Below, one piece after another: positions 6,559 through 49,003 of a DNA stretch of 64,000 nucleotides (position 1 is its first letter; every line of letters starts with the position of its first letter). Source of the DNA: Schmidtea polychroa (lineage: Eukaryota); assembly GCA_044892525.1 (NCBI GenBank), contig CM097885.1, positions 208,258,001 to 208,322,000 on the forward strand, read 5' to 3'. A model generated the notes under the pieces. That model made no database searches, had not been told where the DNA came from, and saw only the letters and a program-made list of their open reading frames with translations. Both the position numbers and the translations under genes were made by a program.

Positions 6559-9030
6559 GTCATTATTTGTTAAATCGTATCATATAATTATAGTTATATC
6601 ATATATTTTTTATTCGGAATAATACATATATAACATAAAGATATAATATGTATAACATCATATAATTATAGTTATATCATATATTTTTATTCAGAATAAT
6701 ACATATAGNNNNNNNNNNNNNNNNNNNNNNNNNNNNNNNNNNNNNNNNNNNNNNNNNNNNNNNNNNNNNNNNNNNNNNNNNNNNNNNNNNNNNNNNNNNN
6801 NNNNNNNNNNNNNNNNNNNNNNNNNNNNNNNNNNNNNNNNNNNNNNNNNNNNNNCATAATTGGTGTCAGAAGATAAAACAACAAAAACACACACGCACTC
6901 GGCATTTGTTCTTTCAATCACGAAACCTGTCAGTATAGTTATTATAGAACTATAAAGGCTAGTGACACTGTTGGCCGAACACAGTAGGCCATATCCTTCA
7001 GATAAACTATTATATTTTTTTTAACACAACAACAAAACAAATAAATAGTAGAATATATAGTAGAATAAATCTCAACCCTAACACCAACAAGGCAAACACA
7101 CATTCAACACATGAAAGCAGTAGTCATTATTACAACCCCGAAAATTGTATAATATTGACAAATAAACAAAGGATAAATATACATGTGGACAATAATCAAT
7201 AATATCTATGTGATTATTGGGATAAACATTATTATATTGTGATAACTTATATTTGATTATTAACAATTTGGATGTGATTGATTAACTTATTTATTTATTA
7301 AGCTGTAATAATATATTTTATTTTTATTGATTTATTAATTCTTGGTGATATCTTATATTAAAAAATAAACCAATTTACAATTTCATTCAAAAGTTATGAA
7401 TAATACTAATATATTCTATTTTAATTTTCTGAGCGTTATTATCGGTTAGTTGTTACTTGTTATTATAATTATTGGTTTAGAGAAAAATAAGTTTCTTTTG
7501 GCTTAAATGTTTTCCGAATTGGGTCATTTGTAGCNNNNNNNNNNNNNNNNNNNNNNNNNNNNNNNNNNNNNNNNNNNNNNNNNNNNNNNNNNNNNNNNNN
7601 NNNNNNNNNNNNNNNNNNNNNNNNNNNNNNNNNNNNNNNNNNNNNNNNNNNNNNNNNNNNNNNNNNNNNNNNNNNNNNNNNNNNNNNNNNNNNNNNNNNN
7701 NNNNNNNNNNNNNNNNNNNNNNNNNNNNNNNNNNNNNNNNNNNNNNTTGTAAACATTTTCCTATTTCTGAAAATTTTGTAATATTGTTGACATTTGCTCA
7801 TCCTCATCTGAGAGAGCATTAATTAAATTTTTATATTCCTCATTATTTTGATTGACAATATCGAAAGCGTTATCTATGAAGTCTGATATATTAAAAATAT
7901 GCTGGAAAAACTAAGTATTAAAAAATATTTCAAACTCTAATAAATTTTATTTTCACTAAATTTTTTAAACAAATATAAATTATCTTTATTTCTAATAGAT
8001 CAACTGAATATTTAAACACATTTTCATTTTTAAGTTAATTTAAGTTAAATTTCTCTTTTAACCCATTTTTAATTTACTTAAATTTTCCTTTACATAAAAA
8101 AATAAGTTTTTTACAAAATCAAAAAAATATATGTTTTTTAACATAACATATAATTTTTCCAGGTTCTATTGCTATCACCATAACAAATGGAAACCAGGCG
8201 GCGCAAACCNNNNNNNNNNNNNNNNNNNNNNNNNNNNNNNNNNNNNNNNNNNNNNNNNNNNNNNNNNNNNNNNNNNNNNNNNNNNNNNNNNNNNNNNNNN
8301 NNNNNNNNNNNNNNNNNNNNNNNNNNNNNNNNNNNNNNNNNNNNNNNNNNNNNNNNNNNNNNNNNNNNNNNNNNNNNNNNNNNNNNNNNNNNNNNNNNNN
8401 NNNAAGAATATCAGCAAAACATATTGAGAAATCATATTTAATTGTTTTGGGTTAAACTATTTTGTTTAAAATATTTCTGATGAGATAAATCGATTTTTAT
8501 TGCCAAGTGAATATTAGAAGATGTTGTTACTTTTCAGTGTTGCGTTTTGTTGTCGATCTTATTAACATTAGTGCACAGTGGCACAATTCGACAAAAAATA
8601 ATAAACACAAAATCGATTTAAAATCAGTTTGCTCCTTTTGTTTATTTTTGTGTTTTGTACTGAATAAATAACAAAAATTAAATTGTTGTAAATTAAGATT
8701 TAACATTTTACCAATATTTTATCTTCAAGATCTTCTTTTATTTAGAATTCTTCCGACCAAACTTTTGAAAAATTAACATTTACTTAAAATAATTTTAATA
8801 TATTTTTTTAATGAAAAAAAGTTAATGAAATTCATTCAATAAACATCCTTAATAACAAAAATATCTTTGAACTGTTTTTATCTTACAGTTATTGATTAAT
8901 GTGTAAATTGAATGTTTTTTGATTAAATTATTAGAAATAATTGTTGAAAGGACTTTTATTGATTAATTTTGATGATTAATTGTTTTAGATCAATTTTGTC
9001 TATGAATAACAAAATAAAATACATTAAATA

Positions 9031-9160
9031 TGCTGGATAAAGGGATAATCCCAAAAATAGTAACAATTAAAATCTGCACTTTCTAAAACAGAAATTTTAC
9101 TGACTTTTGACGAAACAAAGTGTGTTGACATTCGAAATGGAGTGTCAAAAGAAATTTCAT
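9031..9160 (+). repeat. LTR-like 5' terminus (TGCTGGATAA type) shared with 25310-25445
   Basis: TGCTGGATAA..CCAAAAATAGTAACAA..CTGCACTTT..TTGACATTCGAAA.GGAGTGTCAA..TATATAAG is present at both loci. Confidence 0.75.
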
Positions 9161-10240
9161 ATATAAGTAGACTGATTTCTCAGTCAAATCACCCTAAAAT
9201 AAAAGCTTTCAAGAAGAATTGCAAATTCAGAAATTGATATTGCAATATAATTTAGAGCATACAAAAATTACATAACCTAGCTCAAGCAACTAGAGAACAT
9301 AATAAGAAAGATAAAATAAAATAATTATATATATTTTATTTAAAAGGTGATTTTTATTTTTTTGTATAACTATTATTGATAAATAAAGTTTTTGAACCAG
9401 TGTTTGTGTTCGTATTTATATAGTTATCATCAATTTGAGATTTGAGCCATCAACACCAGCATGATTAATTGGAAGAGGTGGAGAAAGATTATCGCGAGGA
9501 AGGTACATTGTAGGATAATTAATTTTTTAGGGCGAAATCATGAACGAAAGTCTCATAAGGAAGTTTCAGACAAAGGCGATTTGATTTGAAAACCATTCAT
9601 CAAATAGATTATTCTACTATATAAGGTAAGTCGAAATTAGAAACCACTGACATTTCCCTCAGATAGAAACGAAGAACTTGAAAGAAATTCATTGGAAGTA
9701 GACAAAACGAAAGATTAAGCGAAGTCAATAGATCAATTAAGATGGAATATGGAAAAACGTATGACGCGCACAAAATTCAAAATTTAAAAATTGTACATCA
9801 AACTTGACAAGATTAGTTAAATTTACTAATTTTTAATTCAAATTATTGTGTGTGATTTAAAAATTAGAATATTTGTATTTCTTACATTACCGTAGATGTT
9901 TTATTTTTAAAATTTAATATAGTCTTATACCAATTTAGATAGAAATCGATAGAAATTTAACATTATTATTATTGAATTAAAAAGAGAGTTTGAAGACTAA
10001 ATCAGTAATATATCGATGTTTGTTGATACTCACGGATTTTCGGCACTGCCTTTTTCAAGTGAATTTAAAACCCTGTTTTTCCAAACAACTTAATAAAAGG
10101 AAATTGAATTGTGGATATTTTAACATTTATTTCAAATTTAAATGTTAATCAGTCAATTAAGTGCGAAATTTATTTGTTTACAATCATATTTATATTTCTT
10201 ACTAGAATTATTGACTATCTAAAATACGTAAGCAGCTTAA

Positions 10241-10665: not shown

Positions 10666-10807
10666 ATATAAATAATCAATAATTAGCATACTTTCGTTTG
10701 ATGTAAAATTTTCCGTCTGCTGTTTGTTGAAAAACACAAAAGTAAAATAAATAATTAAAATTAAATAGATTGAATTAATTTAATAATCAATATTCCTTTC
10801 TAAAACT

Positions 10808-11690
10808 ATGAAAAGAAAAACATGTGTGACATCATTTAAAGACGAGTGGCTGGATGAGTTAGTAGAAACAAACACACCAAATTCACGCAATGCAGAACGT
10901 GTTCAACTTCGGAATATTTTTATTTTTGAACAGGGTAACGGTCTCATTTGCTTGTATTGCCAAATTGCGAAAGTTACCGAAGAATTTTCCACCGGCAAAA
11001 CTTGGGATGAGATGTGGAAGCTCGATTATTTAAAACGTCATCTAACGAGTAAATGTCATCAAGCTGGAGTTAATTTGCTGAAAAATCGAAATCCTGCATT
11101 GGGATTAAGTGTACTTGGAATGCTTTTAGAAACTCCAGCTGAAAAGGCTATCTAATTTTGAGCGCAAACGTTCAAATCCGGACCAAATAAAAGAAATTAT
11201 TGATAGTGTCTTGTTTGCAGTAAAAATTAACAGCTCTATGCTTTTTGTTCAAGAAATTAATGAGCACATGGTAAAGTATCCGTGAGTACCAGAATGTTGG
11301 AAGTAAAAACTACGCGTTTGAATTTTTGGAAGAAATTAACAGTTGTACAAGGTGACGTCATGAATGAAATAGCATCGTCTGCTTTCTACACTTTAACAGT
11401 GGATGAAAGTACAGACATTTCCGTTAACAAAATGTTAATTCTTTATTTTAAATATCGGCCACTAAATTCCACAGAGTATAAGACTTCGTTTGGAGGGATT
11501 ATACAATTAAAAGCTTATAAAATAGACTTAGCACGCATAGTAATTTTTATGTTGTAATGGGCATTCGTGAAGCTCGGCAAAAATAACAGAGTTCCAGCGT
11601 TATATTCCACATTTATTTCAACAACATTGCGTTGCACACCGTGAACACTTAAGTATCAGTGATTCTTGGAAAGAAGTTAAGAGATATCGA
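10808..11690 (+). mobile_element. hAT transposase remnant (ZNF862/C17orf113-like)
   Basis: SFKDEWL..LICLYC..WKLDYLKRHLTSKCH zinc-finger-like N-terminus, FYTLTVDESTDISVNKMLILYFKY first catalytic D, and QHCVAHREHLS (CxxH) at ~11620-11650. Multiple stops and frameshifts. Confidence 0.85.
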
Positions 11691-11788
11691 AACGTTACAC
11701 AGAACTTTATACACAACATCTGAATACCCACGTTTTCATCTGCTATCTATCAAATCACTTTATAACTCATTTACTACCTTTCTAGCAC

Positions 11789-16129: not shown

Positions 16130-16590
16130 ATTGAAACTTCATACAATGTGATACAATGTAAGATCGTGACTCACAATTTATGAGTACTTGAGACGCTTGC
16201 ACTTTGTTTTGAGTTTAATACTAATAAGATTGGTCTAAGTGCTTCCGCTTTAAAGCTGCACTTGAATTATTTTCAGTTTTGTATTTACTTAACCCTCTCC
16301 GTATATTTGTCGAATATATTCGACATTAAAGCAAGATGTCACTTCCAGTTTCATAGGCCATTGCAAAAGTACATCGTTTTCACCGCGCATTATGAAAAAG
16401 AAAACAGAAAGATGTGTCCCTTTTCCAGCTTTGAATCCATCGGGATGAAGCTGAAGGCACATTTTGTAACCGTTTTTGTGGGAATAGAACGGGTCACTAT
16501 AAATATCAGCATTATTTTTTACAAGGAGAGGGTTAATTCACTTTAAAAATACTTTCGAAGTGTGAATATCAAATATTGAACCAGGCGGAG
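16130..16590 (-). pseudogene. TRAF: TRAF-type MATH (TRAF-C) domain fragment, missed by the ORF track
   Basis: Minus-strand translation 16510->16292: ADIYSDPFYSHKNGYKMCLQLHPDGFKAGKGTHLSVFFFIMRGENDVLLQWPMKLEVT, the canonical TRAF-C signature. Weaker traces lie on both sides. Confidence 0.92.
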
Positions 16591-21949: not shown

Positions 21950-24430
21950 TCTAAATGAAACGTGTTCAGTTTAAGTGGATTACAAAAGAGAAAACTAGCT
22001 AAAGAAAAGAGCACACTATTTCTATTGTGAAATCTAAGAGCAGAAAATTAACAAGTTATTTAGTTTTAGATAAGCAATAGGAAAAACCGGATTTTACTGA
22101 CACGATCGGCCCTCTTGATAAGTCTACTATAGGCTGTTGTGTAAATTCAGACACTTCAATAGAGCTTGATAATGAAATTTGTTGTAAGTGTAACCCACTT
22201 CAGTCTGCTGGAGCTGAAGATGATGATAAAGATGAAAATGAATAAATTAAAGATCTAGGACTGTGGATTGGGTTTTCCGCTGATTATATGGCATACTGGG
22301 TTGACTGTGGGCCCACTAATTGTCAGCGTCATTATGGAACCTTTGATAAATATTGCCGTATTTCTGATGGAGGACAAATAACAATATATTGTTCCCGAAA
22401 TTTTTTCTATGGCACAAAGGGAAATGGTGAGAAATACAGGAGAGAATATTATTTCAGCTTATCAGTAGACTCAACACCCGATATTTCACATATAGATCAT
22501 TTAAGCGACGTTGTCGATATGTAGTAGATGGAGCTCATTGAACCCTTTTAGACTTTCTTGGAGAACCAAAATCACACCGGTGAAGGTATGACTAGGTAAG
22601 TGCTGTAGTACTTACGTGAAATTTTCAATATTGATTTTTCGAAAGGCTAAGGTCAATCCTACGATAATCCAGCTAATATGTTTGTGTGCTATACCCTGTG
22701 CTGCCAATTCACTAAATCTTGTAGGCAGAAGTGCCGTTGACTCCTGTTTAGAGGCAGTAAACTACTTCCATACAGTGCAACTGATCTAAACTTTTTTCTC
22801 AGCTTCAACCAACAGATGGAAGATTCTGAAAGGATGCTGGTAAAGTCTCATCCTCAGATTTTAAAAGCATTACTTGTTAAGTTTTCGTAACGAGTTTTCT
22901 TCAATTTGTCTAAAGAGTAAATATTGTGCTCTTAAAAATTTTCAGTAGGTTATAGATACACTTATTATAAAATTGATTTTTTATTTAAATTATTATTTTT
23001 TTTTAATTGGTTTGAGTGTTCGTATATCGGTCGAGAAAAAGGTGGTAACCCTAGTAGCAATCATGTTCAAAATCTTGGAAGCAAAGGAAAAGAAGATTAT
23101 AAAAAACCGTTTAAATTTGACGCTTTTTTCTAAATGTTAATGGAAGCTGCAACAATGTTTAAAGATTTAGAAGTGAAGGACCTGAGGATTAATAAATTCC
23201 GCTTAAATTTGACAATAATTTTAAAATCAGATGGAAATAATAAATTTTGCAAGAGTATTTATGTTGATGTTGATCAGATATTGGTTTTCTTTTTTTAGTT
23301 AAGGGTGTTTTGGCCTATCTTTTAGTTTTTTAAACCTTGGCTCCGGGACTTTATATTGGTCGATGTCCTTTAATACGTTGTAGTGTGGATTCCAGTCTGT
23401 TCATTTATATCCTGGGCCAATTTTCTGTACTTGCCCATATTCTTGGCTCTGGCTTGTTCTATTGTATCTTTATGATTGAAAGGGCATTTAATATATACTA
23501 CGAATATCTGCTTCATTGTAGTGGGATAGTTTCCGTTTCAAAGCTCATGTCTTTCGACTTGACTAGATCATCTAATGCTTTTAGAATTTCATTGTCTTTG
23601 TCAGTTTGTGATCTGTTTCCCCTTGGGCACATGTTTATGACATGTGATGCCGATTCTTGTGAGCAATCACAATGTCTACACTTAGTTGAGGCAATTCTAC
23701 AACAAAACTTAAATCACTTGCACAAATTTAAGAATGAATTTGAAAGATTTTATAAGTCAACTTTGATCAGTAATCGTAAACGAAAGACAGTGGTCATTGA
23801 TGGTGATGGCCCTGAGATATTTATGAATGCCATAGACAAATTTCGTATATCTGCATTCTACACCATTGTTGATAAACTTGAGACAGAAATAAGTAAACAT
23901 AGACAAATATATAATGATGTAGCAGTTCGATTTTCTTATTTGGTCGATGTATCACTATCACAAACATCTCAGTGTTTTGATGAACTAATAAATGGTTAAC
24001 CTAAAGATCTGAACCATAATTTATATACTGAACTACGACAGTTTCATTCATATATTCGTCACAAGTTTCCTGCATCAAAATCGGAAAACAGCACGTTCAA
24101 TCATGGAGAATTATACAAAGTAATAGTTAGAGACAACATCGAGTATACCTTTCCAAATGTTGAAATCGCATTGCGCATATTTTTAACACGAATGATTACT
24201 AACTGTTCAACTGAGCGCTCTTTTTCTCAGTTGAAACGTACAAAAAATCCAAATAGATCAATAATGAAACAAGAAAGGGTCGATTCCTTATCTCTGCTTA
24301 TGATTGAGGCAGATATGTTGCGCAAAATTAACTTTGTCGATATACTCAAAAACTTTGCTAGATGTAAATCTAGAAAAAAAACTTTAAAATTAAATGGCAA
24401 TATCTATTTGATTTTTTCATCTAATAAAAA
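21950..24430 (+). mobile_element. hAT (Tip100/Zaphod-like) transposase pseudogene, interrupted at ~22900-23685
   Basis: YWVDCGPTNCQ..GTKGNGEKYRRE, SVDSTPDISHID, HTGEGM, GQSYDNPANM, PCAANSLNLVG, FFSASTNRWKIL; resumes with FYTIVDKL..FPNVEIALRIFLT..TNCSTERSFSQLKRTK..QERVDSLSLLMIE (hATC dimerisation domain). Confidence 0.92.
23330..23685 (-). mobile_element. R2/NeSL-type non-LTR retrotransposon C-terminal fragment (CCHC plus restriction-like endonuclease)
   Basis: KCRHCDCSQESASHVINMC (CCHC knuckle), then YIKCPFNHKDTIEQARAKNMGKYRKLA (REL motifs). Sits inside the hAT in the opposite orientation. Confidence 0.8.
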
Positions 24431-25446
24431 AATAAAGTATTTTTCTCTATTTTTAATTCAAAATTTATTAACTATTAATTTTAATACAGAAATACTTTAT
24501 TGTAGGTTTTATATGAATAATAGCAGTACAAACTACAAAATTATTTGTTAACTATGTTCTTTGCATAATATTGAACATACCAGCGATCACGGTCAATGAA
24601 AGATCAGGGGCCCAGGAACTCGATTCCCATAAAATGACAAAGAAAAAATTTTGCATAAAAGTGACAATTGTGAGAAAAATGCGTCGGTATATATATCCGA
24701 TTTTGGTGTGCGAGTCTGTGTGCGTGCATTGATGCAGTAAAAAAACATGCACCGTGGCCCAATTCAAAATATATTTTGAACTAAGTGCATGATGTTTATT
24801 TTGTGCACCAAGTGCATTATGGAAAAATTTAATTGTATTTAAAATTTTTATTTCATATATGAAAATATTACCATTCAAATAATTAGGAATATAACGAGAA
24901 ATTCAAAATTAACCTTTCAACTGAACATGAATTAATTGAAAAATAAAATCGAATTAAGTTAATTTTTGTAAAACGCTGAAAATGATTAGATGTTAATAAA
25001 AATGCATTCTATTGAGGAGAGGGCTTCAAAACAAATTTATTTTACAATTTATATTGAAATTCCATGATAAAAGAAAATATATCTAAAATCATAAAGACAT
25101 ACAAAATCAATACAATGAAAATTATTTACTTATAATAATAAAATCAAAATTATTTCTCTGATGGACTATCAAATACAATTAATACTCCATCATGATTTCT
25201 TTGTGTTTTTGAACTGTTCTTACACAGTTTTGAATTGAATGTATTTTAAAATTTATTACTGATATTTTAAAAAATACTTATTGAGAACACTTATAACAGA
25301 CAAAAAAGATGCTGGATAAATGAAAAATTCCAAAAATAGTAACAACTAAAGTCTGCACTTTTAAAACAGAAATTATATTGACTTTAACAGAACAGAGTGT
25401 ATTGACATTCGAAACGGAGTGTCAACAGGGATTTTATATATAAGAG

Positions 25447-26038
25447 ATTTGGGAGAAGAAACCAACACAAAAAACGAACAAGGAGAAACAGCAATGATGT
25501 ACGCAGCAATAACAAATATACACCCGAAAACACTGCATATCAATCGGGTTCAAGACTCGACGAAATATCAAATGAAGGAAACTCCGCCATAGACTGGGCA
25601 ACAATACAACCAAACTTAGAAATGATCCGATTTATTTGTAAAAATGTAACAAGGGTAGAGGTAGAAAACATCTGTAAAAATACATCACAGTTCCAATGGA
25701 ATACGGTACGAAAAAACTTGGAAGCTATGAAACTACTATTAACATGGAGAATACTGCAAAGCAACAAATATGCAATAAACGTAAACGAGTTTTACGAAAA
25801 TGGGGAGAATGCAATGGTTAAAAATACACTAACAAAGGGAGGAACTCCAAAGGTTATATTAATCGTGTTAAACAGAGAAGACCTCAGGTTCACAAAAAAT
25901 GAGAAGGAACAAAAACGAATTGGAAAACATCGTCGCATACAATTGAGAGAACTAGTGAAAGAATGGAATAGAAAAAGACACGCGGCAACTGGGAGAAAGG
26001 AGTTCGAATTTGAAACTAGCAAAACTAGCAAGAAATAG
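25447..26038 (+). pseudogene. Ankyrin-repeat ORF, frameshifted
   Basis: NTKNEQGETAMMYAA (frameshift) GSRLDEISNEGNSAIDWATIQPNLEMIRFI..KNLEAMKLLL..INVNEFYENGENAM match the ankyrin consensus. Intronless. Confidence 0.8.
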
Positions 26039-26300
26039 AGTATTAACGGCATATCGCAGACTATTAAATGATATAAATGTCGAGGACGACATTTTAAACG
26101 ACAGCGGGTGAGACAAATACGATGATAATGACGGAAAGGGTCGAAAGGAAGACAAGGAGAAAAAGACGCCAGAGAATAGTCAAGGGAACAAAGACTCAAA
26201 TACGAGAAGGAAGGAAAATAATCCGGAAAGCAGGACAAAGGAGGAAGAAAGGACAAATAATGGAAAACAGAGGGTATGCCTACTTTTCACCAATAAAGAA

Positions 26301-27296
26301 ATGGAAGCAAATATGATATTAATGATGCTTCTACTAACAATGACGAAAATAATAACAGCCCATGGAGGAATGAGAACGGTAAAAGAGAACAGAGAAACAG
26401 AAAACAACGACAACAAGGAAGAAGAACCAAATCAAGAAAAGAAAGAACAGGTACAAAATCAACAAAGGGATCTAAAGAAAAGGTGTTTGCAAGGAAAATG
26501 CCTATTTAAAGCATATCAGAGGATAATACTGGCCAATGAGGATACAGAACCAATAACAGAAGTAGGAGTACAAGAAGTGTACCAACACAAAAATGGGAGA
26601 AAAATAACAAAAGCTAAGTGGAAGGAAGTATGGTTAGAAAAAGGAGAGGATATACCAATAGCACATCTTCAGCCAAGGAAAGAGCACAAGGTCTGTATCT
26701 CGAGAAAAGAACCAGGAGAAGAATGTCAACAATATGCAACACATCGTCAACCACGCAAGGAGTATACGGTCTGCATCTTGAGAAAAGGACCAGAAAGAGA
26801 ATGCCGACGATACCCCGGGAAAAGAGGGAAGAAAAGAAAAATTAACGACAGAAGAGACGAACAAAAGAAACGCAAGAAAACCAACGAGAAATACCAGGAC
26901 AATTATGTGTCGGAAGAAGAGATGGAAAAAATACAAAAAATGGCAAAAGAGGGAAGCAATGAGAAGATAGCAAGAATACGAGGAATGATAAAAGGAAAAG
27001 TCAAAGAAGAAAATGGGAAAAGCACAAAAGCTATGATTACAACTACAAACGATGAAAAATCAGAAATTATAAGCGTAAACCAAATGATATGGATCAGTGG
27101 AATAATAATAACAGGGGCATTTGTAATTATAACGGGGGGAGCTATTAAAATAATTAAAGATAAACGACATCGTAGAGAATTGGAAATGACCAGAACCAGA
27201 AACTTCAAACATCGAGTAAAAAGACCAAGCAATATATACCAAGAGCAGTGGATGGAGGCCTGGAATGCCCAGCGCCCTCCAAATCCACGTATATAG
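26301..27296 (+). CDS. Intact 331-aa putative membrane protein with 2 x 26-aa Cys-containing repeats
   Basis: Hydrophobic N-terminus MILMMLLLTMTKIITA, repeats HLQPRKEHKVCISRKEPGEECQQYAT / HRQPRKEYTVCILRKGPERECRRYPG, and TM-like IWISGIIITGAFVIITGGAIKII followed by basic residues. No family recognised. Confidence 0.6.
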   Translation: MEANMILMMLLLTMTKIITAHGGMRTVKENRETENNDNKEEEPNQEKKEQVQNQQRDLKKRCLQGKCLFKAYQRIILANEDTEPITEVGVQEVYQHKNGRKITKAKWKEVWLEKGEDIPIAHLQPRKEHKVCISRKEPGEECQQYATHRQPRKEYTVCILRKGPERECRRYPGKRGKKRKINDRRDEQKKRKKTNEKYQDNYVSEEEMEKIQKMAKEGSNEKIARIRGMIKGKVKEENGKSTKAMITTTNDEKSEIISVNQMIWISGIIITGAFVIITGGAIKIIKDKRHRRELEMTRTRNFKHRVKRPSNIYQEQWMEAWNAQRPPNPRI

Positions 27297-27914
27297 AAAG
27301 GGTTATGACTGTATAAAAATTGTAAAAAGTAAGTATATGAAACATATCTATATAACAGTATTACTATATATCTGTATATAAGCGCGGTATCAATATTATA
27401 TAACGATTGGGATAAATAATATAAAAATAAAATCAGACGAAGGTTGAAAAGGTGTATATAAATTAAGAATGGATCAAATAAACAACGAAATAACTCACAA
27501 CACGAAAACCGAAGATATGTGGAAATAGCAATGTGCAATGTTAGCACAAATAATCTCAAATTTGCAAGAACAAGGAATTACAGTACAAAGAAACTTAGTC
27601 GAAAGTTTGAATAAAGGATTCAGTTAGTAAAAATAATTGAAGATTAACGAGTAAAAATAGAACAAATGTATAGAGAAATAGAACGAATAACGCGATACAG
27701 CCGGATGCAGGAAGAGGAGTTAATAAGAATCGCAGATGAAATGGAACGAGAAGTGATGGAAGAGTGGTCGGAATGGTTAACCAGTAGGGAAGAGGGCGGA
27801 CAGGAGGCCGACTCTTCCAGCCAATAAATAAAACCCCAACAAAGTGTAAATAATTGTATATAGAAATACGAGAATTGTACTAGTAAGAAAATACATGTAT
27901 ATATAATTGTAGAA

Positions 27915-29285
27915 ATGGATAAACAACAGAAGGAGGAGATCAAAGGAATCATCGCACAAATCAGAAAGTCAACAACAATCCGAGTACATAAACATGTAAT
28001 GTGCGGAATATGCGAGAAATTATTGAAGGAACCTCATCAGACAAGGTGTGGATGTAGGCTGTGTAAGGAATGTATAGAAGAGATAATAAAGAAGGGACCA
28101 GTATGTAAAGAGGCATTAATATCAAGCCTGAGGGATACCAACGAGGATAAAGCAGCAGTAAATGATATGCTGAACTCTAACCTATGATGTAAAAACACCC
28201 AATGTAATTGGCGGGGGCTAATATGGGAAGTAAAACAACACATAAAGGAATGTACATACAAAATTAGCCAATGCGAACGATGCCAGAAAAGCATCAAGGC
28301 AAACGAGGAAAGGGAACACCAAAACCAATGCGAGGAAAGACTGGAAAAATGCGAATACTGTGGAAAAACAGATGCATGGAAAGAGTTAACGAACAAACAT
28401 TATAACCTACAAGAGGAACAACTGTATGCAGAATTCAGTGGCGAATGTCCAAACGAATGTGGTAAGAAGGGAATGTTAAAGCTAGCACAGCATTTGAAAG
28501 AATGCGAAAAGAAAAGAATAACATGTGTATTGGAAAAATGGGATGCCAGAAACAGCTACACCGAGAAGATTTGCCACAACATTTAGCGGAAAGTATATCT
28601 ACACACGCAGAAATGTGGTCAACTACATTACAAGAGAGCGAGCACCAAACCGAGAAGTTAGAAAAAGAAATAACCTCTTTAAAGGCATTCGTGAAAGAAT
28701 TATTAGAAGACAGAGAAGCATTCGAAGAAGCAAGAACAAGCACCAAAGTACAGACAAATCTGGTCGAGACCACTCATAACATGGTAAAAGAATTATATCT
28801 AAAAATAAACGAACTCAACTTAAACGAAATAATACCAACAGCACCTTACATATGGAAAATAACAGGGGTAAAAGAAAAGATTCGGAGGGCAAAGAATGTA
28901 AAAGATACAACGATGACCAGCCCAGCATTCCATTCATGGAAAAACGGATACAAGATGAAAATGAAAATATATCCTAACGGAGATGGAATCGGATACGGAA
29001 CACATTTTTCGGTATTCTTCCTGTTATGTAAAGGGGAATACGACGAAATAATAGAATGGCCCTTCCAAGCAAAAATTGACATCGTAATGATAAACAATCA
29101 AAGTGTGCACGAACAAAGCTTTAAAACAGCAGGAAATCTCACATATTATCAGAGACCTTTGGAAGAAGGATCGGCATCGGGAGCGCCTAACTTCATCCTA
29201 CAACGAAGTGGAAGATATGGCAAGAAACGATACGATATATATAAAAATGGCAGTAAGAAGGGAAGGGAAGAGTAGAACTGAGTAG
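27915..29285 (+). pseudogene. TRAF: Intronless TRAF-family gene (RING, TRAF zinc fingers, coiled coil, MATH) with 1 stop and 2 frameshifts
   Basis: RING CGICEKLLKEPHQTRCGCRLCKEC; in-frame TGA 28185-28187, then CKNTQCNWRG..CERC..CEYCG..CPNEC. Single-base frameshift in an A-run at ~28535. MATH YIWKI..SPAFHSWKNGYKMKMKIYPNGDGIGYGTHFSVFF..EWPF. Second frameshift at ~29200 restores NDTIYIK, ending at 29285. Confidence 0.95.
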
Positions 29286-29761
29286 GCAGAGGAGATAACT
29301 TTGTATATAATAATCTGTAAATATCGGTGTATATACCCTATAATATTATATATTATAACCGCATGGAAACCATAAATGTCGTAATAATAAAATCAAACGA
29401 AAAATGAGAAAAGAATAACTAATTAGTAAATAAATGTAAGAGTACAAACATCAATTTAATAATATCATTATTCAGAAAATGACACAAGAAAGAGCAGAGA
29501 CCCCAAACCACACCTCAACAATGCAAGTCGACAGAGGGTGCAAAGAGATATGGAGAAAAGTAATGTGCCAATTGGCAAATAAAACCAGGAACTACCTAGA
29601 GGAGGCTAGGGAATGGGAATTCAATCAGTCCCAGTGGCTAATGTAAAATCTAAGAGCAGAGGCAGAAGCCTGTAAAAGAGCCGCAAAATGGTCGGCATTG
29701 AAAAGCACTCGACAAGAGGCACATAGCCATTACTTAAAACAGTTAGTGCAAGAATCCAGGA

Positions 29762-30112
29762 TTGACGGATGAAAACAGAAAACGAGAAACTGAAAAACAA
29801 AAAGAAGGAAGAAAGATCAACCATCTATTAAGCGAAGCGAGAAAATGGAAACGACAAAACAAGGAAATCAGAAAAGAAATGAGGAAACTACCTCAAAAAC
29901 TGGGATGCAGCAATGACCAGGAGAAATGGGAAGAAAACCTGGACCAAAAAGAGGAACTAAGACGACTCAGGAGAATCGCCGCACGTAGCCAAACGTGGCA
30001 AACTAAGGCGATGGAATTTGTAAGGCATTTGGCGATGAAGATAGCCGTAAAAGAGCAGGAAAACACGGTACGGAAAAAAAAAAATTACGATATGTTTAAC
30101 TACAATGTATGA
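29762..30112 (+). CDS. Short coiled-coil ORF of unknown function (likely decayed)
   Basis: 116 codons, charged heptad-like pattern, same strand and composition as the cargo block. Confidence 0.35.
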   Translation: MTDENRKRETEKQKEGRKINHLLSEARKWKRQNKEIRKEMRKLPQKLGCSNDQEKWEENLDQKEELRRLRRIAARSQTWQTKAMEFVRHLAMKIAVKEQENTVRKKKNYDMFNYNV

Positions 30113-30160
30113 CGTATACGTGAATTGCGGGACGCAATTTTAACGGGCCCCGGAGTGATT

Positions 30161-30900
30161 TGTTGGGCTAAATCTTGAATGTTGATAGAGTTAAATCGGA
30201 TATGTAAAAAGGAACCCCATAAAAAAATAAAATAAAGATAACCCTAACCGGAATCCCAGTAACATAAAGAGAAACCAAAGAAATCTATTAAAAGAAATCG
30301 AAATAAATAATAAAATCATTAAAAGAGGGTATAAGATAGGAAATAAAGTACCTCTGACATACAACCAAAGGAAAAAATAATGTAATAAAATTTAAGGAAA
30401 TAAATAAAAATTAAAGAAATAGAATACAAAAATAAAACAATTCCTTAACAAAACGCTACTGAGAATTAAAACAAAAAAATTACATTAAAAAGAAACAACA
30501 AAAAATCCATAGAAAAATAAGGAAAAATAACCAACATTAAGAAAATAATAAAATAATAATAAAAATAAAATAAGGCAAATAAAATTTATTGAAAAAACAA
30601 TAAAAACTACAAAATAACAATAAATAATAAAAATACACCCTAACTGCGTCCTGATTGGACAAAAAATACTACGACTTTAAAAAAAACCAATACAGATTTT
30701 AGACCTACGACTCCACTCAACTCATTACAGACTTCAGAAGAATAACTACATCAACTACAACCCTCAAATTTCGAAAAACTAGACTACGCATTAGGATTCA
30801 TTATATTCGGAATCACTTTTCGGGAAGCAACTCGTTCATTCAGACTTAACTCTATCAACTACGGGAAAATCCACAGTATGGTTTCAAACTGATTGTTTTA
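30161..30900 (+). promoter_or_regulatory. TGTTGGG-initiated LTR-like promoter unit
   Basis: TGTTGGGCT start, A-rich tract, CTGATTGG (reverse CCAAT) at 30651. The same layout occurs at 43771, 49410, 53031 and 37957 (minus). Confidence 0.6.
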
Positions 30901-31329
30901 TTGTATGATATGTTTATCATTATACTTATTTTCAAATATTGAGATCAATAAAATTTATTCATTATCAATCAAAAGTATTTCTTCTTCACGGTACTGGCGA
31001 CGGTGCTGTCTGGAGTCATCGATCACGTTGCAGAAAAATGCCAAAATGAGATCGGAGACTTGGGAATTATTAAAAGAATTACGAGATCGAGGATGAGATC
31101 AGTAAATAACACGTTCATTTTTATCTCGACTAGAGAATCCACGAAAATTAAATTATTGGAAATGACCAAAATTGGGTTCATTAACCCAGAGAAATACGGG
31201 ATGAGATTGCACAGTATGAAACAAATGTAGATTAGGTAGAGGCATCGTGATTGAGAGATCCACGTGGCATGGTCGCCAGGTAATTATTTCTATTGTATTT
31301 TATTTATTTATATTTTCTTTTCAATTAAA

Positions 31330-31990
31330 TTTGGGGTGTAGTGGGTGGATTTGTCCTTCATGACGGTGTGAGAGTGGTGGGCAGCGATGCCTGTGACTCT
31401 TGGGTGTGTCATGAGGGGTGGAGAAACCCCGAGATGAGATAAAGAGAATGACAATAATAATTCCAGTTTCGTTGAGTGCGATCAGAAGAAGCATAGATTT
31501 CAATTATTTTCCATAAGAAGCATCGAAAAGTTCCATCGTCTGAATATCTCGATATGTTCGCATAGTCTCCGTTTCGTCGTCCAGCATAACGAATCATACT
31601 TTGTCGATAAGCTCATTTCGATAGGGGATGGCCATTTAGAAGACCTACTAGGTAGTCGGTTAAGAAAGATCCATGAGATGGCAATCACGATTTTCCTGAT
31701 TCTCGTGTTAGTGGCTAGATCCATCCTCCTACTGAGAAATCTAAAAATTTGACGTCAAAACAGTTTCCATTGACCCGATGCCGTCACTGATAATGTTGAT
31801 AACCTACACAAAAATTAAAAATCGTTATTAGTACAGACGAATCCGCCAGTGCATCCACATCGAAAATGCCATATCTAGATTTCTGCTAGAACCGATTTTC
31901 ACTAATCTACGAGATACATCTGTCTTGTCGAGCGGGATTACATTTTCTTTTTGCGTCATAACATAGATGACATTTGTACCGGTAACGAAT
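31330..31990 (-). pseudogene. Highly degenerate MATH-like ORF remnant (tentative)
   Basis: Minus-strand peptides ..MHWRIRLY*, DDGTFRCFLWKII and LLIALNETGIIIVILFISS resemble MATH strands. Shares GGGGTGTAGTGG with 54107. Confidence 0.3.
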
Positions 31991-32111: not shown

Positions 32112-33155
32112 CACGGGTTCCCAACCGGGGGTCTATGGACCCCATAGGGGTACGTGGAGCACTCCTATGGGGTACGAGAAGCGCGGCCGGTAAGGATTTT
32201 TGTCTCGAATTTTTATTGATAATATTTCATTGTTTTAAAATTTAGTAACAAACAAAAATCGCAATTTTTTTGAACACGGTTCGGTTTTTTCAAAGTAAAT
32301 TTCCTAAAACTAAATACAATAACAAATATGTACATATGGATTTCTTATTTTTGAAATAATAAATAAGTCGTTATAATATATTAATTATCAAATTGATATT
32401 GTTTTTACTAAAACGTGTACAAAAAATAAATATCTATAACGGGTTTCAATTTATTTGGGTAGTTACAATAAATAAACCATTGCATATTTAATTGTCTTAG
32501 TTTTTAGAAATAATTATTTTTTATTATCGACAGCTAACCCATACTGTCACAATGTCAAAGAAGCGTTGTTATCAGGACTCATATATTCAATTCGGTTTCA
32601 CTTTCTTAGTTGACAAAGATGGATTGGAAAGGCCACAATGCATACTTTGCTCGAAAGTACTTAGTAATGGTTATATGAAACCATCCAAACTTAAGGAACA
32701 TCTACAAGCAGTCCATCCAAACAACGTTAATGACACAGAATCTTTATTCAAAATTAAGAGAGCCCGATTTGAAACAAGCACAAAGCTCACCAATCACGGA
32801 TTTCTTCCCGAGAAAAAACCAGCTTTAGAAGCAAGTTATCGTGTGGCATTGAGGATTGCGAAAGATAAAAAACCTCATGCAATCGCGGAAACTTTGATTA
32901 AACCATGTGCGATGGAAATGGCCGAAATTATGTGTGATAAGGACGCAAAACTTAAAATATCACAAATACCACTATCAAACAACACAATTCACGATCGAAT
33001 TAAAGACATGTCTTATAGCAGATTGTAGAACAAATAAAAGAAAGTTCAACAAAAATTGGATTGCAATTGGATGAATCCACTGATGTTTCTAACTGTGCTC
33101 AACTTCTTGTTTTTGTTAAATATGTGTATAGAAACGAAATCAAAGAGGATTTTCT
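32112..33155 (+). mobile_element. Buster/Charlie-type hAT, left end plus truncated transposase
   Basis: TIR CACGGGTTCCCAACC preceded by TGATAGAT (central TA, Buster target consensus). BED finger RPQCILCSKVLSNGYMKPSKLKEHL, ASYRVALRIAKDKKPHAIAETLIKP, PLSNNTI, LQLDESTDVSNCAQLLVFV. Truncated where module B begins. Confidence 0.93.
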
Positions 33156-33373
33156 TTGAACCCAAACTGCGAGTTTACTAAGAGTAGTCCTAAGGTAGGG
33201 GCTCACCTGTTAGTAAATTCCGACCTATGTGCGCAGTACCAACGTGTGACATGGCCACGGGCACACATAAGGGAAATCAGCTAAGGTCATCTTGGATATC
33301 CAGGGAACCACACGCTGAGCAGACGGGGACAGTTTTATCTTATTTTAATTTTCTTCCTTCCCGGGTATCCAAC
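33155..33373 (+). ncRNA. Conserved structured module, copy B, with CCAACA terminus
   Basis: Core CCTATGTGCGC-AGTACCAA-CGTG..CACG-G-GCACACATAAGG at 33224-33272; upstream GAGTAG..GGGGCTCACCTG; ends TATCCAACA. Confidence 0.65.
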
Positions 33374-37959: not shown

Positions 37960-40900
37960 ACTAAAAAATCGACCGTTGGTTACTCTGATTCCACGTGTCC
38001 CAAAAATCGATAAACACAAACTCCCAACGTATATTTGTTTTATAGCAAATTTACAATTCTCAATAAATGATTACAACTTTTAGTTAAACACGATTTTGCT
38101 CTCGATTTCCGATCGAACTTCGCTCTGGAAAGTCTCGTCCTTGTGCGATTAAAAAATAAGTTTCACCTTTTTATTTGATTCCACTCTCTAATCCGAAATC
38201 TTTTAATACTCCTTTATAACTCTTCAGTTCCTCTTATAATTCTTTTTTTCTTGACTTTGTTCCTCTAATTCTTATTGTCAGTTTCTTCTTCCCTACCTAG
38301 GGCCACTGCCGATTATCTGAATTTAGAGTTTCCTTATATACTCCCATAATTGTTGTAATTGCCCCATGCAGGGCCGCGCCAAGCGGGGGTGCTGGGGAGG
38401 CCTGCACATGAGCACCACGTCTTAGGGGCGGCGTGCGCCAAATGTACATTCGAGCGCGCGTGAAATCATAAATTAACATTTTAGGCACCCACTTTAGTGG
38501 AAAATATATTCGGTCAATAAAATGTGCAAACTTTTTGTAAATTTGAGTAAATTGAAATTCAAAATGCAATACGAATTAAATTTACTACATCATGTTAAAA
38601 ATAATAGGTTTGCAATTACCACTTCGTCCGCGCTACGATATGATAATACAATGGACCGTGGGAACAGGAACTGCATCCGCGCCAGAGTAGGAGGGGGTTT
38701 GATGCTGAAATTTAGGACGCAAGTGTTAGTGCGCATTTAATAATGTAATTGGACTAGTCCAGTCTAGCATTTATAGTTAGGTATAAGTGAATTGTGTTTT
38801 GTGAATTCTAAAAATGTAAGTACCTACAATTTTCTACATTGTCTTTTACATTGCTGTATTTATAAATAATCATTAGTATTTACTTCTATCATTTTGGTCA
38901 TAAGAAATTCACCTTACAATTGCATATCAAAAAATGCTGATCAGTTTAGTTTTAGATTCTGTGGATTTTTTTAGATCAAAGTTGGAATTTTTAATTCATG
39001 TAGGTTTGTCTAGTTTTGACCGAAAAGAAGGGTTGATCGAATAAAATTCCCACTGTAATCCTAAAACCTCTACAATTAAGTAGTTTTTGGTGATTTAACT
39101 GCATTTCTTTATGGATTAAAATAATTGAACCGTATTTTAAAATTAATTTATTGAAAAAGTCTTGTAATTATGGTTTTGTACAACAAATTTTTAGTAAATA
39201 AAATTAAAATGCCTAAACTAAAACAATTGTTTTACTATTTTTTTTAGATGTCTGAGAAAAGAAAGAAGTTATCGGGTGCAGCATATAGGAAACGAAAACT
39301 TGAAAAAGAAGAAATCAAGATAGTATGTACTTATCACGCTTTTTTCAACCAGTTCCTTCCTCAAGTAATTCAACGCCTGCTGAATCTGAAGAGAAATCGT
39401 CAAATTTTTCTGGGAATGACAGAGGAGGAAGCAGTTTGTCATCTACATCAATGGAAATGGAGGAAATATCTTCACAATTGGATATCGAGGTATCAAGGAA
39501 GATCAGGAACCAGAATCTATTTCTGGCAAAAATAAAAGTAAAGACGTCTCAAATATAATTCAATTAGATTTAGATGATCCAGGTCTATGGCCTGAACTAA
39601 CAGACGAAGTAAGAATGTTATTAATAGCAATAGGACCAAAACAAATTAAAAACTTTAACTTTCCAATAAATGATAAAAGATCTTTTGCGGAGAATTACTA
39701 CATTAAAACTTTAAGTAATGGAGAAAAAATCAATAGGAATTGGCTAGTTTATTCTATATCCAAAAATTTAGTATACTGTTTTTATTGTAAATTATTTACA
39801 AATAATGATAACGCATTTAATAATGAAAATATGTATTGTGATTGGAGACACTTATCACAAGCCATAGAGCCATTTGATTAGTTTTAAATCTGTTATTGAT
39901 TTAAATAAATTAACAAATAAAAATAAAACTATTGATTCAATGAAAAATTAATTAATTTAGAAAAAGAGATGGTGATTAGTCATAGAACGAATTATTCATG
40001 GTGTTCAGTATTTAGCGTGACAAAACTTAGGGACATTTAGAGGAACAGTTAACAAATTTTACGATGCCCATAATGGGAACTTTTAAAATTAATGGAAACA
40101 TTTGCTCAATTTGATGGTGTCATGGCTGAACATTTAAACCGCGTTCAAAATAATGAAAATAAAATACCACATTACCTTGGTGAAAAAATTCAAAATGAGT
40201 TAATATTTTTAATAGGAAGAAAAATTAAAACAGAAATAATTACTTCACTAAAATTGTGCAAATATTATGCATTTATTAGATTGCACTCTCGATATTATCC
40301 ACCAGGAACAAATAACTATTATTGTGCGATTTGTTCATTTAAATGGTGTTAACAAAAAAATTGAAATTAGAGAACATTTTTTAGGCTTTTGCCCTATATT
40401 AGACTCTACAGGAGAAGGTCTAACCAGATTTGTAATAGACTTTTTTAATCAAGAAAATATTAGCATTTACGATATGCGTGGTCAAGGCTACGATAACGGA
40501 GCTAATATGAAGGGAAAACATATTGGTCTCCAAAAAATAATTTTAGATTTAAATTCAAGAGCTTTCTACGTGCAATGTGCTAGTCTAAATTTAGTAGTGA
40601 ATGATGCCGCTAAGGCGTCTCTTGAAATTACAAACTTTTTTTCTTTAATTCAAGAAATTTATCTGTTCTTTTCTTCATCAACTCATCGTTGGCACATTTT
40701 AATGAAAGAGTGTCCTTATATGACCGTTAAACCAGTGCCTGAAACAAGGTGGGAAAGTAGAATCGACGCTATAAAAGTTTTAAGGTATAATTTGGAATCA
40801 ATTTATGACCATTATTTGCTTTATTTAATGATTCATCTAGAGATGCTAATACCAAAAATATGGCTAAATCTCTCATAAAAAAAATTAAGTCATACAAATT

Positions 40901-41300
40901 TATATGTTCTATAATTATTTGGTATAACATATTATTTAATGTAAATGTTGTAAGCAAATTCTTGCAAAAAAGTGATTTGGTTATGCCAACTGCAATTGAA
41001 ATGCTGAATTTGCTTAAGATTTTTTTTACTTATTTGGGGAGGGGGCGGCAAATTTTGGCCCCATGTTTGACCTAATTAGTTTTGACTTCCTTAGTTATCA
41101 TTCTCTAATTAGTGGTTACAGGTAGTATTGACCAAATATTTTCCATTGTTTTTGGAGTTAGAAAGAAAGGAAATGGAGATCGGTCGAGTTTCTAAAAAGG
41201 TTTCCATTAGAAAATATTGCTTATAAAATTAACGTTGATTTATCAACAATTGGTAATGGAAATATATTGAATATTTAATTGTAGTGTAAGAAATGAATTT
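37960..41300 (-). mobile_element. LTR-like unit (homologue of 5062-5761) split by a hAT insertion
   Basis: 37960-38368 is the reverse complement of ~5370-5730, and 41058 onward continues as the reverse complement of ~5320-5365. Confidence 0.8.
38369..41057 (+). mobile_element. hAT (Tip100/Blackjack-like) transposon with frameshifted transposase
   Basis: Left TIR CAGGGCCGCGCC; 8-bp GCCCCATG at 38361-38368 and 41058-41065. Transposase motifs NGEKINRNWLVYS..VYCFYCKLF, GNFLKL..FD, DCTLDIIHQEQITIIVRFV, RGQGYDNGANMKG, FFSSSTHRW, ETRWESR. Confidence 0.93.
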
Positions 41301-48326: not shown

Positions 48327-48532
48327 TCAAGGACCAACTATTGACTTACTATAATTGTGTGTATTGTGACAAATAATCAAAATTGGTTGAGGATCATGTG
48401 TTACTCTTTTTAACAAAATATCTTTTGAATAAATTTCTTATTTAATAGCTCAAGTATCGTGATGCATGATATTGACCTTATTATATTGAACAAGGGGAAT
48501 GCTGCAAGCCAGTAATCGTTGTAATTTATCTA

Positions 48533-49003
48533 GTGATCAAACTATGCGAAAATCTACGAAAGGACAGAGAAGAAGCCCAAAAACAGGCCGAGGAGCTCCG
48601 TATACGAGTGGACAAACTCAAGGGACGGTGCCGTGAACTAGAAAGCACCTGGTTTAGTCCTCAAGATATGAGGAAGAAGTTGACACCGGTCCTCCAATTG
48701 CAGACTCAAAACGCGCAGGATCAGATGGAGATCCGGGCCTTGAAACTCCAACTCCGCGCGTTGGAAACCGAACGCAATGAACAAGCGGTTCACGGAGCCA
48801 CCATAAGTCAAATCCGGCCGTTGTCCGTGGAGTTGGCAGCCATTTACCCTCCGGCCGCGAAAGATAAGCCCAAGAGGAAGCGGCTGGGGAGAAACATTCG
48901 TGAGAAATTAAAGAAGGCCAGACTGGCCGAATACGAAAAGCAAGTGGGCTCCTCGCAAATATCTACGACGGGACTAATCGGCCCCACCAACCGGCCAAGT
49001 TGA
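48533..49003 (+). CDS. Family-X divergent member (start codon uncertain, GTG)
   Basis: Coiled coil RIRVDKLKGRCRELESTWFSPQDMRKKL (compare IDELEGTLFSPAQMKE) and basic KPKRKRLGR; 156 codons open. Confidence 0.65.
   Translation: MIKLCENLRKDREEAQKQAEELRIRVDKLKGRCRELESTWFSPQDMRKKLTPVLQLQTQNAQDQMEIRALKLQLRALETERNEQAVHGATISQIRPLSVELAAIYPPAAKDKPKRKRLGRNIREKLKKARLAEYEKQVGSSQISTTGLIGPTNRPS

What the first reader, a model, noticed from the sequence alone, without database searches (positions are those of the whole stretch)
25310..30900. A-skewed, intronless, single-strand cargo block with NF-kB/TNF-pathway-like genes (ankyrin + TRAF + membrane protein)
Between an LTR-like 5' end (25310) and a TGTTGGG unit (30161), about 5 kb of closely packed plus-strand ORFs occur: ankyrin repeats, a 331-aa membrane protein, a 53-aa acidic ORF (27666-27827), a complete TRAF and a coiled-coil ORF. 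Composition differs sharply from the flanks: 26341-26400 has 30 A vs 6 T, and 28861-28920 has 29 A vs 7 T, whereas the 16.3-kb MATH is not skewed. A long residence in an A-biasing RNA-intermediate element is a plausible cause. Ankyrin and TRAF mimics are established immune modulators in large DNA viruses (e.g. polydnavirus vankyrins), so this could be an element or virus carrying signalling-modulating cargo.
Basis: partly seen in the sequence, partly recalled or inferred. Interest (0 to 1): 0.72.

Follow-up and report, generated by a model that had tools for sequence, protein, structure and literature searches.

The report
Decayed signalling-gene cargo of planarian retroelement
This is a broken, multi-copy row of captured cell-signalling genes (ankyrin, a membrane protein, TRAF, coiled coil), most likely the tail end of a giant planarian retrotransposon of a known kind, laid out like an operon in a way that may let host splicing cut it into single messages.

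Summary
The A-skew is real: AT skew +0.43, against at most 0.15 in 194 outside windows. The block is a multi-copy family: 3,890 contigs of one run lie on it and its flanks, most under 95% alike. The TRAF (RING, zinc fingers, coiled coil, MATH) falls inside a triclad TRAF clade, but it has three breaks that also stand in public-run contigs. The ankyrin and coiled-coil ORFs are broken too. The 'LTR end' at 25310 is the ankyrin start codon. The TGTTGGG unit at 30161 is an LTR-like start behind a conserved 40-nt box.

Best reading (about 0.7): the 5'-truncated 3' accessory region of a Burro-like gypsy LTR element. TRAF/MATH and ankyrin cargo are already published for Burro. No gag-pol or paired LTR was found, so membership is unproven. 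An unchecked note of this scan reports a Burro element elsewhere in this genome.

New here: ORFs sit 87-262 nt apart with a poly(A)-like signal and an acceptor-like AG before each start. An independent contig (L001) shows the same layout more cleanly: AATTTTAG occurs 5 times, before 5 of 5 ORFs. This suggests spliced-leader or alternative splicing of a cargo operon (inferred, not shown).

The parts
25100..25308 (+). Low-GC (21%) spacer upstream of the first ORF; left limit approximate; the element is cut off somewhere to the left
   Evidence: GC and skew; other copies vary at 25219/25225 in 6-7 contigs of X1, and summed depth is still high in 25053-25303
25309..26038 (+).
26301..27296 (+). Open 331-aa type-I-like membrane protein: hydrophobic N-terminus, two 26-aa Cys-containing repeats, TM at about 259-285, 46-aa tail; no homologue found
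27297..27468 (+). Spacer (GC 23%) with AATAAA at 27426 and an acceptor-like AAG before the next ATG; weakly similar to the spacer after the TRAF (1 of 200 shuffles)
27469..27827 (+).
27828..27914 (+). Spacer (GC 23%) with AATAAA at the stop and TGTAG two bases before the TRAF ATG
27915..29285 (+). Intronless full-architecture TRAF (RING, TRAF zinc fingers, coiled coil, MATH) with three breaks
   Evidence: Pfam MATH E 3e-24, zf-TRAF 2e-5, RING 2e-5; collinear with P0024; tree; breaks
29286..29478 (+). Spacer (GC 22%) with AATAAA at 29386 and 29429 and TTCAG three bases before the next ATG
29479..30112 (+). Broken coiled-coil-like ORF; shares a 7-residue word with the ORF behind the TRAF in L001
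30121..30160 (+). GC-rich pre-LTR box (short hairpin, GGAGTGA); candidate plus-strand priming region, not a clean polypurine tract
   Evidence: depth peak, loose ends before 30123 (14 contigs) and behind 30169 (11 contigs) in X5; 8 of the last 15 nt purines; fold z -1.9
30161..30790 (+). Start of an LTR-like unit: TGTTGGG, A-rich U3-like stretch, CTGATTGG at 30651; right limit marks the end of the skew only, the repeat goes on to about 31580 and its end motif was not found
9014..9167 (+). Second, fragmentary copy of the first about 45 codons of the ankyrin ORF (84%)
   Evidence: flanks not significant (37 and 170 of 200 shuffles)
16337..16513 (-). Unskewed 59-aa MATH fragment (control, not part of the block)

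Best explanation
The block is the 3' accessory-gene region plus the start of the 3' LTR of a decayed, 5'-truncated giant gypsy-type LTR retroelement of the Burro kind in a triclad planarian.

Shown: skew, multi-copy state, collinearity of TRAF and coiled-coil ORF in another copy, triclad origin of the TRAF, breaks, spacer anatomy.

Inferred: (1) Host mRNAs (TRAF, ankyrin) were captured as intronless copies. (2) Many replication cycles through a plus-strand RNA drove U loss and A gain at synonymous sites, spacers and U3 alike. (3) The internal cistrons cannot be translated from the genomic RNA, so each is freed by splicing onto the acceptor just before its ATG. My odds for the route: host spliced-leader trans-splicing of a polycistron about 0.4, alternative cis-splicing from an upstream element donor about 0.35, separate internal promoters about 0.25. 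(4) In intact copies the TRAF and ankyrin proteins damp or redirect TRAF/NF-kB-type stress and death signalling in the cells that carry the element, as reported for Burro1's IAP. This copy makes at most the membrane protein.
For: Skew and four-fold sites. 3,890 contigs laid in X1, 2,703 of them under 95% alike; several TRAF-region paralogues at roughly 85%; X7 record 23 joins TRAF, spacer and coiled-coil ORF in order at about 85-89%. The TRAF is sister to P0024 (98/95) inside a triclad clade (100/99) with named Dugesia and Dendrocoelum TRAFs; P0024 has the strongest K/E/T/N/Q bias of the 160 proteins scored (2.75, block 2.26, median 1.1). The 30123-30169 piece, joining the box to TGTTGGG, recurs with varied flanks. 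The 30161 unit resembles other TGTTGGG units of the window (0 of 60 block shuffles for 7 of 9 units) and shares their A-skew. Burro elements carry MATH_TRAF_C, ankyrin, Smc-like, BIR and BCL2 motifs, with MATH_TRAF_C as a separate accessory ORF in D. tigrina and decaying fragments in D. japonica (PMC6431247 section 7). L001 repeats the design with other cargo.
Against: No gag, protease, RT, RNase H or integrase: no Pfam hit among 18 + 83 ORFs scanned (of 327 ORFs of 50 aa or more), and 7 motif patterns gave one stray hit. No second LTR and no target-site duplication. The pre-LTR box is not purine-rich (8 of 15). TGTTGGG units are abundant and insert next to one another here, so adjacency could be secondary; X5 contigs show varied sequence upstream of 30123 and X7 record 25 stops aligning at 30063. 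In D. tigrina the TRAF ORF is upstream of gag-pol, not before the 3' LTR. The AT asymmetry of Burro is recalled from Grohme 2018, which I could not open. X7 record 23 runs unspliced through the acceptor-like site at 29469 (RNA status of X7 is a guess). L001 has no LTR or pol either, and is C-rich where the block is G-rich.
Confidence: 0.7

Rival explanations
1. A non-autonomous, cargo-only LTR element (LARD-like) that never had gag-pol and is mobilised in trans by Burro-type enzymes.
For: No core gene in the window or in L001; summed depth is higher over 25.3-27.8 kb than over the TRAF; a CCCCAACA motif like the family's LTR end lies at 27834-27841.
Against: The 27841 site ranked only 4th in a sliding comparison with four LTR ends, behind A-rich positions, and lost most support without its terminal motif; no primer-binding site follows it.
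Confidence: 0.12
2. A fragment of a Polinton/Maverick or integrated DNA virus with immune-modulating genes, hit later by an unrelated LTR.
For: Compact intronless ORFs with AT-rich spacers; Polintons occur in planarians (PMC8532177 passages); LTR-like units are common in the window.
Against: No PolB, capsid, ATPase or integrase hit; no relative in viral contigs with three proteins and one DNA pattern (weak, exact-word searches); a single-strand skew shared with the adjoining U3-like stretch; the TRAF nests among triclad TRAFs.
Confidence: 0.08
3. A Terminon/Penelope-like or other non-LTR giant retroelement cargo array.
For: Rotifer Terminons and LTR elements share DEDD, coiled-coil and TM ORFs (PMC5408684 passages), the same types as in the block and L001.
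Against: No hammerhead or other Rfam family at gathering score; the block ends in an LTR-like start.
Confidence: 0.05
4. A host gene cluster (operon of TRAF, ankyrin and membrane genes) multiplied by segmental duplication, with no element involved.
For: Planarians have an expanded TRAF/MATH set (PMC6109357 passages, PMC7586133 part 1); flatworm operons have intergenic distances near 100 bp (PMC8629364).
Against: Named triclad TRAFs lack the compositional bias (1.29-1.41); the nearby MATH fragment is unskewed; many copies 80-95% alike, spacers included; four of five ORFs are broken.
Confidence: 0.05

Closest known systems
Burro / GYPSM1 giant gypsy-like LTR retrotransposons of Dugesiidae (PMC6431247 section 7, read whole; Grohme 2018 and Jurka 2007 not seen)
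   Same: Triclad host, high copy number, MATH/TRAF and ankyrin cargo, coiled-coil ORF, stand-alone accessory TRAF ORF (D. tigrina), decayed copies with stops and frameshifts (D. japonica); strand AT asymmetry (recalled only).
   Different: Here the TRAF is a whole RING-zinc finger-MATH gene rather than a MATH domain in the polyprotein, and it lies before a 3' LTR-like start. A type-I membrane ORF is present. No gag-pol, BIR or BCL2 in the remnant. The acceptor/poly(A) spacer layout is not mentioned in that section.
Burro1 B-IAP (Lee et al. 2026, seen only as cited in PMC13465017 passages)
   Same: An element-borne regulator of cell death in planarians; L001's first ORF has an IAP-type RING (PF13920, E 8e-10).
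   Different: TRAF/ankyrin rather than RING+BIR; no function tested here; this copy is broken.
Bdelloid LTR retrotransposons and Terminons with extra ORF3s (PMC5408684, passages)
   Same: Extra TM, coiled-coil and DEDD exonuclease ORFs; ORF3s typically expressed from spliced messages.
   Different: Usually one ORF3 in the LTR elements; here at least five cistrons, each with its own spacer, including host signalling genes.
Spliced-leader operons of flatworms (PMC8629364, PMC12582326, passages)
   Same: Same-strand genes under 300 bp apart, an acceptor just before each coding region, a poly(A) signal after each stop.
   Different: Described for host genes. For retroelements the second paper only infers leader addition from partial leader copies near LTR/LINE elements. 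No leader-bearing read was seen here.
Triclad host TRAFs (D. japonica TRAF2-like A, D. lacteum TRAF-2 and TRAF-4; P0024)
   Same: Same domain order; same well-supported clade.
   Different: At most 35-39% identity; strong A-driven composition; three breaks.

Membership tests
Burro-like gypsy LTR retrotransposon | gag-PR-RT-RH-IN polyprotein | tested here: not met
   None in the window (101 ORFs scanned of 327); the copy is truncated on the left and no genome was available, so linkage elsewhere is open
Burro-like gypsy LTR retrotransposon | Two long terminal direct repeats with target-site duplication | tested here: not met
   Only one LTR-like start (30161); no direct repeat with 25310; no end motif downstream
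Burro-like gypsy LTR retrotransposon | Polypurine tract before the 3' LTR | tested here: inconclusive
   Conserved 40-nt box ending GGAGTGATT, but 8 of 15 purines
Burro-like gypsy LTR retrotransposon | MATH/TRAF and ankyrin cargo | tested here: met
   against PMC6431247 section 7; the ankyrin signal is weak
Burro-like gypsy LTR retrotransposon | BIR, BCL2-like, env, dUTPase domains | tested here: not met
   No such Pfam hit in the block ORFs
Burro-like gypsy LTR retrotransposon | Strand AT asymmetry | tested here: met
   +0.43; that Burro has this feature is recalled, not read
Burro-like gypsy LTR retrotransposon | Multi-copy in a triclad genome | tested here: met
   host inferred from the TRAF tree
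Burro-like gypsy LTR retrotransposon | Sequence homology to a named Burro/GYPSM1 copy | not testable with these tools
   No Burro sequence was available; papers not held
TRAF | RING, TRAF zinc fingers, coiled coil, MATH in order | tested here: met
TRAF | Intact reading frame | tested here: not met
   Three breaks, present in public-run contigs
TNF-receptor-like or TRAF-recruiting membrane protein | Cysteine-rich TNFR repeats and a TRAF-binding motif in the tail | tested here: not met
   6 Cys, no TNFR Pfam hit; three motif matches all lie outside the tail; single-sequence model uninformative (pLDDT 50)
Polinton / integrated DNA virus | PolB, capsid, packaging ATPase, terminal inverted repeats | tested here: not met
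   Viral contigs blank
Spliced-leader operon | Same-strand genes no more than 300 bp apart | tested here: met
   Block 87-262 nt; L001 148-157 nt
Spliced-leader operon | Acceptor AG just before each ORF and a poly(A) signal after each stop | tested here: met
   L001: AATTTTAG 5 of 5, expected count 0.14; block: 4 of 5 starts and 4 of 126 ATGs with a looser pattern fitted after seeing the starts
Spliced-leader operon | Leader sequence joined to the acceptor in RNA | not testable with these tools
   Only contigs were available, none on record as RNA

The most novel reading that the evidence does not exclude
Giant triclad retroelements carry their accessory genes as a swappable operon that host spliced-leader trans-splicing resolves into single mRNAs. 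Each cassette (acceptor, ORF, poly(A) signal) is a captured host regulator of death or immune signalling. Whole RING-TRAFs were captured more than once (block/P0024 lineage against the P0144 lineage), and element-borne copies make up part of the reported planarian TRAF expansion.
Probability: 0.25. Interest if true: 0.78.

Novelty: new variant of a known kind. Interest (0 to 1): 0.47.

Why it matters
Burro elements are known to carry apoptosis and ubiquitin regulators, and Burro1's IAP is reported to protect planarian stem cells. A whole captured TRAF extends that to receptor-proximal signalling. Two things become testable. First, how much of the planarian TRAF/MATH 'expansion' (121 MATH domains in PMC6109357) is element cargo; synonymous A-skew gives a quick sorter. 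Second, how a retroelement expresses five or more downstream cistrons; existing RNA-seq can show leader or donor junctions at three named acceptors. This copy itself is a pseudogenised remnant, which limits its direct value.

Tried and rejected
- 25310 as an LTR end: it is the ankyrin ATG, with no repeat to 30161.
- 27841 as an LTR end, making the TRAF the whole internal region: not distinct in a sliding scan.
- A minus-strand LTR with a primer site at 31278: only a 7-nt motif that occurs four times in the window; not pursued.
- Extended homology around the 9-kb copy: not significant.
- Homologue searches: MATH ORF among longer proteins, 0 of 1,701 candidates; 331-aa ORF, 0 of 873, Atlas best 0.84; the six-row profile added no new triclad member among 8 hits.
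- Loci: viral contigs blank four times; metagenome scan with the block+P0024 alignment, 0 of 123 stretches.
- MATH-only tree (85 rows, 129 columns, quick method) left the block unresolved.
- Whole-length alignments of block ORFs with L001's non-TRAF ORFs were not significant (best 10/500; 44/500 for the pair sharing the 7-mer; 40 pairs).
- Single-sequence fold of the membrane protein was low-confidence, so no fold search was run.
- No TRAF-tail complex prediction was obtained: no verdict.
- No RNA holder listed.
- Rfam 0, tRNA 0.
- Look-ups of earlier findings by sequence, place and words were blank.
- PMC13238120, PMC8797187 and PMC11410931 passages added nothing on cargo.


Full report
1. 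Setting. No whole genome is held. The window is AT-rich and packed with transposon remains: a DDE transposase, hAT pieces and many short repeats. The host group was inferred from proteins. Among the best single-domain hits of the block's MATH ORF in 1.84 billion representatives are TRAFs named from Dugesia japonica and Dendrocoelum lacteum. In a 25-row, 463-column tree the block TRAF lies in a clade of 8 rows holding all three named triclad TRAFs (100/99). So the host is very probably a triclad planarian.

2. The skew. Both quoted counts are exact. Over 25445-30700 the AT skew is +0.43 (A 2417, T 965) and the GC skew +0.17; 194 five-kb windows outside reach at most 0.151. Change points lie near 25285 and 30790. 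Four-fold degenerate sites are A-rich in the TRAF (36:3 of 50; 48:8 of 80) and the membrane ORF (58:10 of 97), but balanced in DDE and hAT ORFs. So the bias acts on nucleotides, not only on amino acids. The 16.3-kb MATH is a lone minus-strand 59-aa piece with skew -0.02; it cannot tell whether host TRAFs have introns.

3. The ORFs. There are five cistrons on the plus strand.
(a) Ankyrin ORF, 25309-26038, with an early stop and at least two frame changes. The ankyrin call rests on Pfam E 0.051, PDB hits (9 of 9 and 2 of 2 at E<=10 are ankyrin-type or designed repeat proteins; best E 0.0012) and Atlas 0.97 with a low shared-feature count.
(b) An open 331-aa protein with a hydrophobic N-terminus, two 26-aa repeats, one TM segment and a 46-aa tail. 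It has no homologue, no tail motif for TRAF binding and an uninformative model.
(d) The TRAF, 27915-29285, with all domains, collinear and intronless against P0024, broken at 28185, near 28540 and near 29205. X1 contigs with no difference span all three places, and X2 contigs do so without gaps; both runs are from one study and may be the source.
(e) A broken coiled-coil-like ORF, 29479-30112.

4. Copy number. Laid at 80% likeness on 24300-31800, run X1 gave 3,890 contigs (458/729/1,389/1,314 at 99+/95-99/90-95/under 90%); X2, X5 and X7 gave 1,935, 2,308 and 317. Identical unique contigs have depth about 190-270 in X1, while summed depth over the block is 5,900-178,000. The tool warns that this is no copy number, so I take it only as 'many copies'. 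At least three other TRAF-region variants at roughly 85% are listed. X7 record 23 carries TRAF, spacer and coiled-coil ORF in the same order at about 85-89%. No listed piece spans the whole block.

5. Ends. 25310 is the second base of the ankyrin ATG. Other copies still align at 25219-25225, and the 9014-9167 copy matches only the first codons. At the right end, 8 nt after the last stop, a GC-rich 40-nt box runs into TGTTGGG at 30161. In X5, 14 contigs have other sequence before 30123 and 11 after 30169: box plus start form a conserved unit shared by many variants. TGTTGGG(C/T)T starts recur at 43771, 44315, 44492, 53031, 61673, 62782, 37957(-) and 2232(-), and ends of the form GACAC..GAGTCAGA..CCCAACA at 57547, 49962(-) and 52087(-). 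The 30161 unit aligns with 7 of 9 such units better than all 60 block shuffles (a control that does not remove the shared A-richness), shares a CTGATTGG box with three of them, and is A-skewed like them. I read it as the U3 of a 3' LTR. Against: no end motif, no second LTR, no duplication, a box with only 8 of 15 purines, and no gag/pol in 101 of 327 ORFs scanned or by motif.

6. Known precedent. PMC6431247 section 7 (read whole) describes Burro/GYPSM1 as giant gypsy-like LTR elements in thousands of copies with MATH_TRAF_C, ankyrin, Smc, BIR and BCL2 motifs. It reports MATH_TRAF_C as an upstream accessory ORF in D. tigrina, decaying fragments in D. japonica, and env homology suggesting a provirus. 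PMC13465017 (passages) cites Lee et al. 2026 for an anti-apoptotic RING+BIR region of Burro1 that aids regeneration; that paper and Grohme 2018 are not held. Burro's AT asymmetry is my recall. Figures and supplements of these papers were not seen and may already show such ORF arrays.

7. A second example and the spacer design. P0144, the second most biased hit, led to L001, a 4,981-nt metagenome contig. It has five intronless plus-strand ORFs: IAP-type RING, TRAF, two coiled-coil-like ORFs and a DEDD exonuclease, with AT skew +0.29. AATTTTAG occurs 5 times (0.14 expected), each 0-16 nt before one of the 5 starts. Spacers are 148, 153, 157 and 157 nt, and each holds AATAAA or ATTAAA. In the block, spacers are 87-262 nt; three of the four are low-GC (22-23%), the one before the membrane ORF is not (40%). 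A looser acceptor pattern marks 4 of 126 ATGs, which are 4 of the 5 ORF starts. That pattern was written after seeing the starts, and two of the four sites are AAG, so this is suggestive only. The ORF behind the TRAF shares a 7-residue word in both arrays (0 of 3,000 shuffles for that pair), but the whole alignment is not significant (44 of 500). P0144 is sister to D. lacteum TRAF-2 (100/100), not to the block TRAF, so the skewed TRAFs are not one clade: either two captures, or that named gene is itself element-coded. L001 has no core genes either.

8. Mechanism. An acceptor before each start, a poly(A) signal after each stop and roughly 100-250 nt spacers match spliced-leader operons. Macrostomum operons peak near 100 bp (PMC8629364 passages); parasitic flatworm operons are called at 300 bp or less, and partial leaders occur with LTR/LINE elements (PMC12582326 passages). 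Retrovirus-like cis-splicing is the alternative: rotifer ORF3s come from spliced messages (PMC5408684 passages), and donor-like GTAA sites lie in most spacers. Against both, X7 record 23 crosses one acceptor unspliced, though it may be DNA or genomic RNA. The function of the cargo in death or immune signalling is inferred from TRAF biology (planarian TRAF knock-down raises cell death: PMC7586133 part 1 of 6) and from the B-IAP precedent. Ten literature searches (listings, plus the passages named) turned up no description of an operon-like cargo array in planarian retroelements, with the key primary papers unread.

9. Verdict. The feature is real and mobile, and it works like a Burro accessory region, but membership fails or is untested on the core features. 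Novelty: new variant of a known kind. Interest 0.47. The trans-spliced-operon reading has probability about 0.25 and would rate 0.78.

Noticed in passing
L001:1-4981: A-skewed one-strand array of IAP-type RING, TRAF, two coiled-coil-like ORFs and a DEDD exonuclease; AATTTTAG before 5 of 5 ORFs and spacers of 148-157 nt.
   Followed up: partly
window:11786-12461, 48476-49003, 51059-51358, 55984-56829: Four related coiled-coil-like ORFs sharing a W/L-F-S/T-P motif, lying near the TGTTGGG/CCCAACA LTR-like units; no Pfam family at cut-off. Possibly ORFs carried inside or beside those LTRs.
   Followed up: no
window:2232(-), 37957(-), 43771, 44315, 44492, 53031, 61673, 62782; ends near 4722, 5761, 49962(-), 52087(-), 57547: Very dense family of TGTTGGG...CCCAACA LTR-like pieces, some directly abutting each other (37957 follows an end-region motif).
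   Followed up: partly
window:19001-19410: Probable Helitron 3' remnant: helicase-tail-like peptide followed by a GC hairpin and CTAG (by eye; motif recalled; no Pfam hit).
   Followed up: no
window:61293-63513: Perfect 1,109-nt tandem duplication (100% over 1,112 nt): a very recent duplication or an assembly artefact.
   Followed up: no
window:16337-16513: Isolated unskewed MATH fragment on the minus strand, 61% to D. japonica TRAF2-like A, with no neighbouring TRAF exons found in 13-23 kb.
   Followed up: partly
window:31241-31285: Motif around TGGTCGCC followed by a donor-like CAG/GTAA; one X1 contig joins 30621 to 31267, so it may lie inside the same LTR-like unit.
   Followed up: partly
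window:23334-24620, 32112-33200, 39248-41072, 10787-11700: Broken hAT-type transposase remains on both sides of the block.
   Followed up: no
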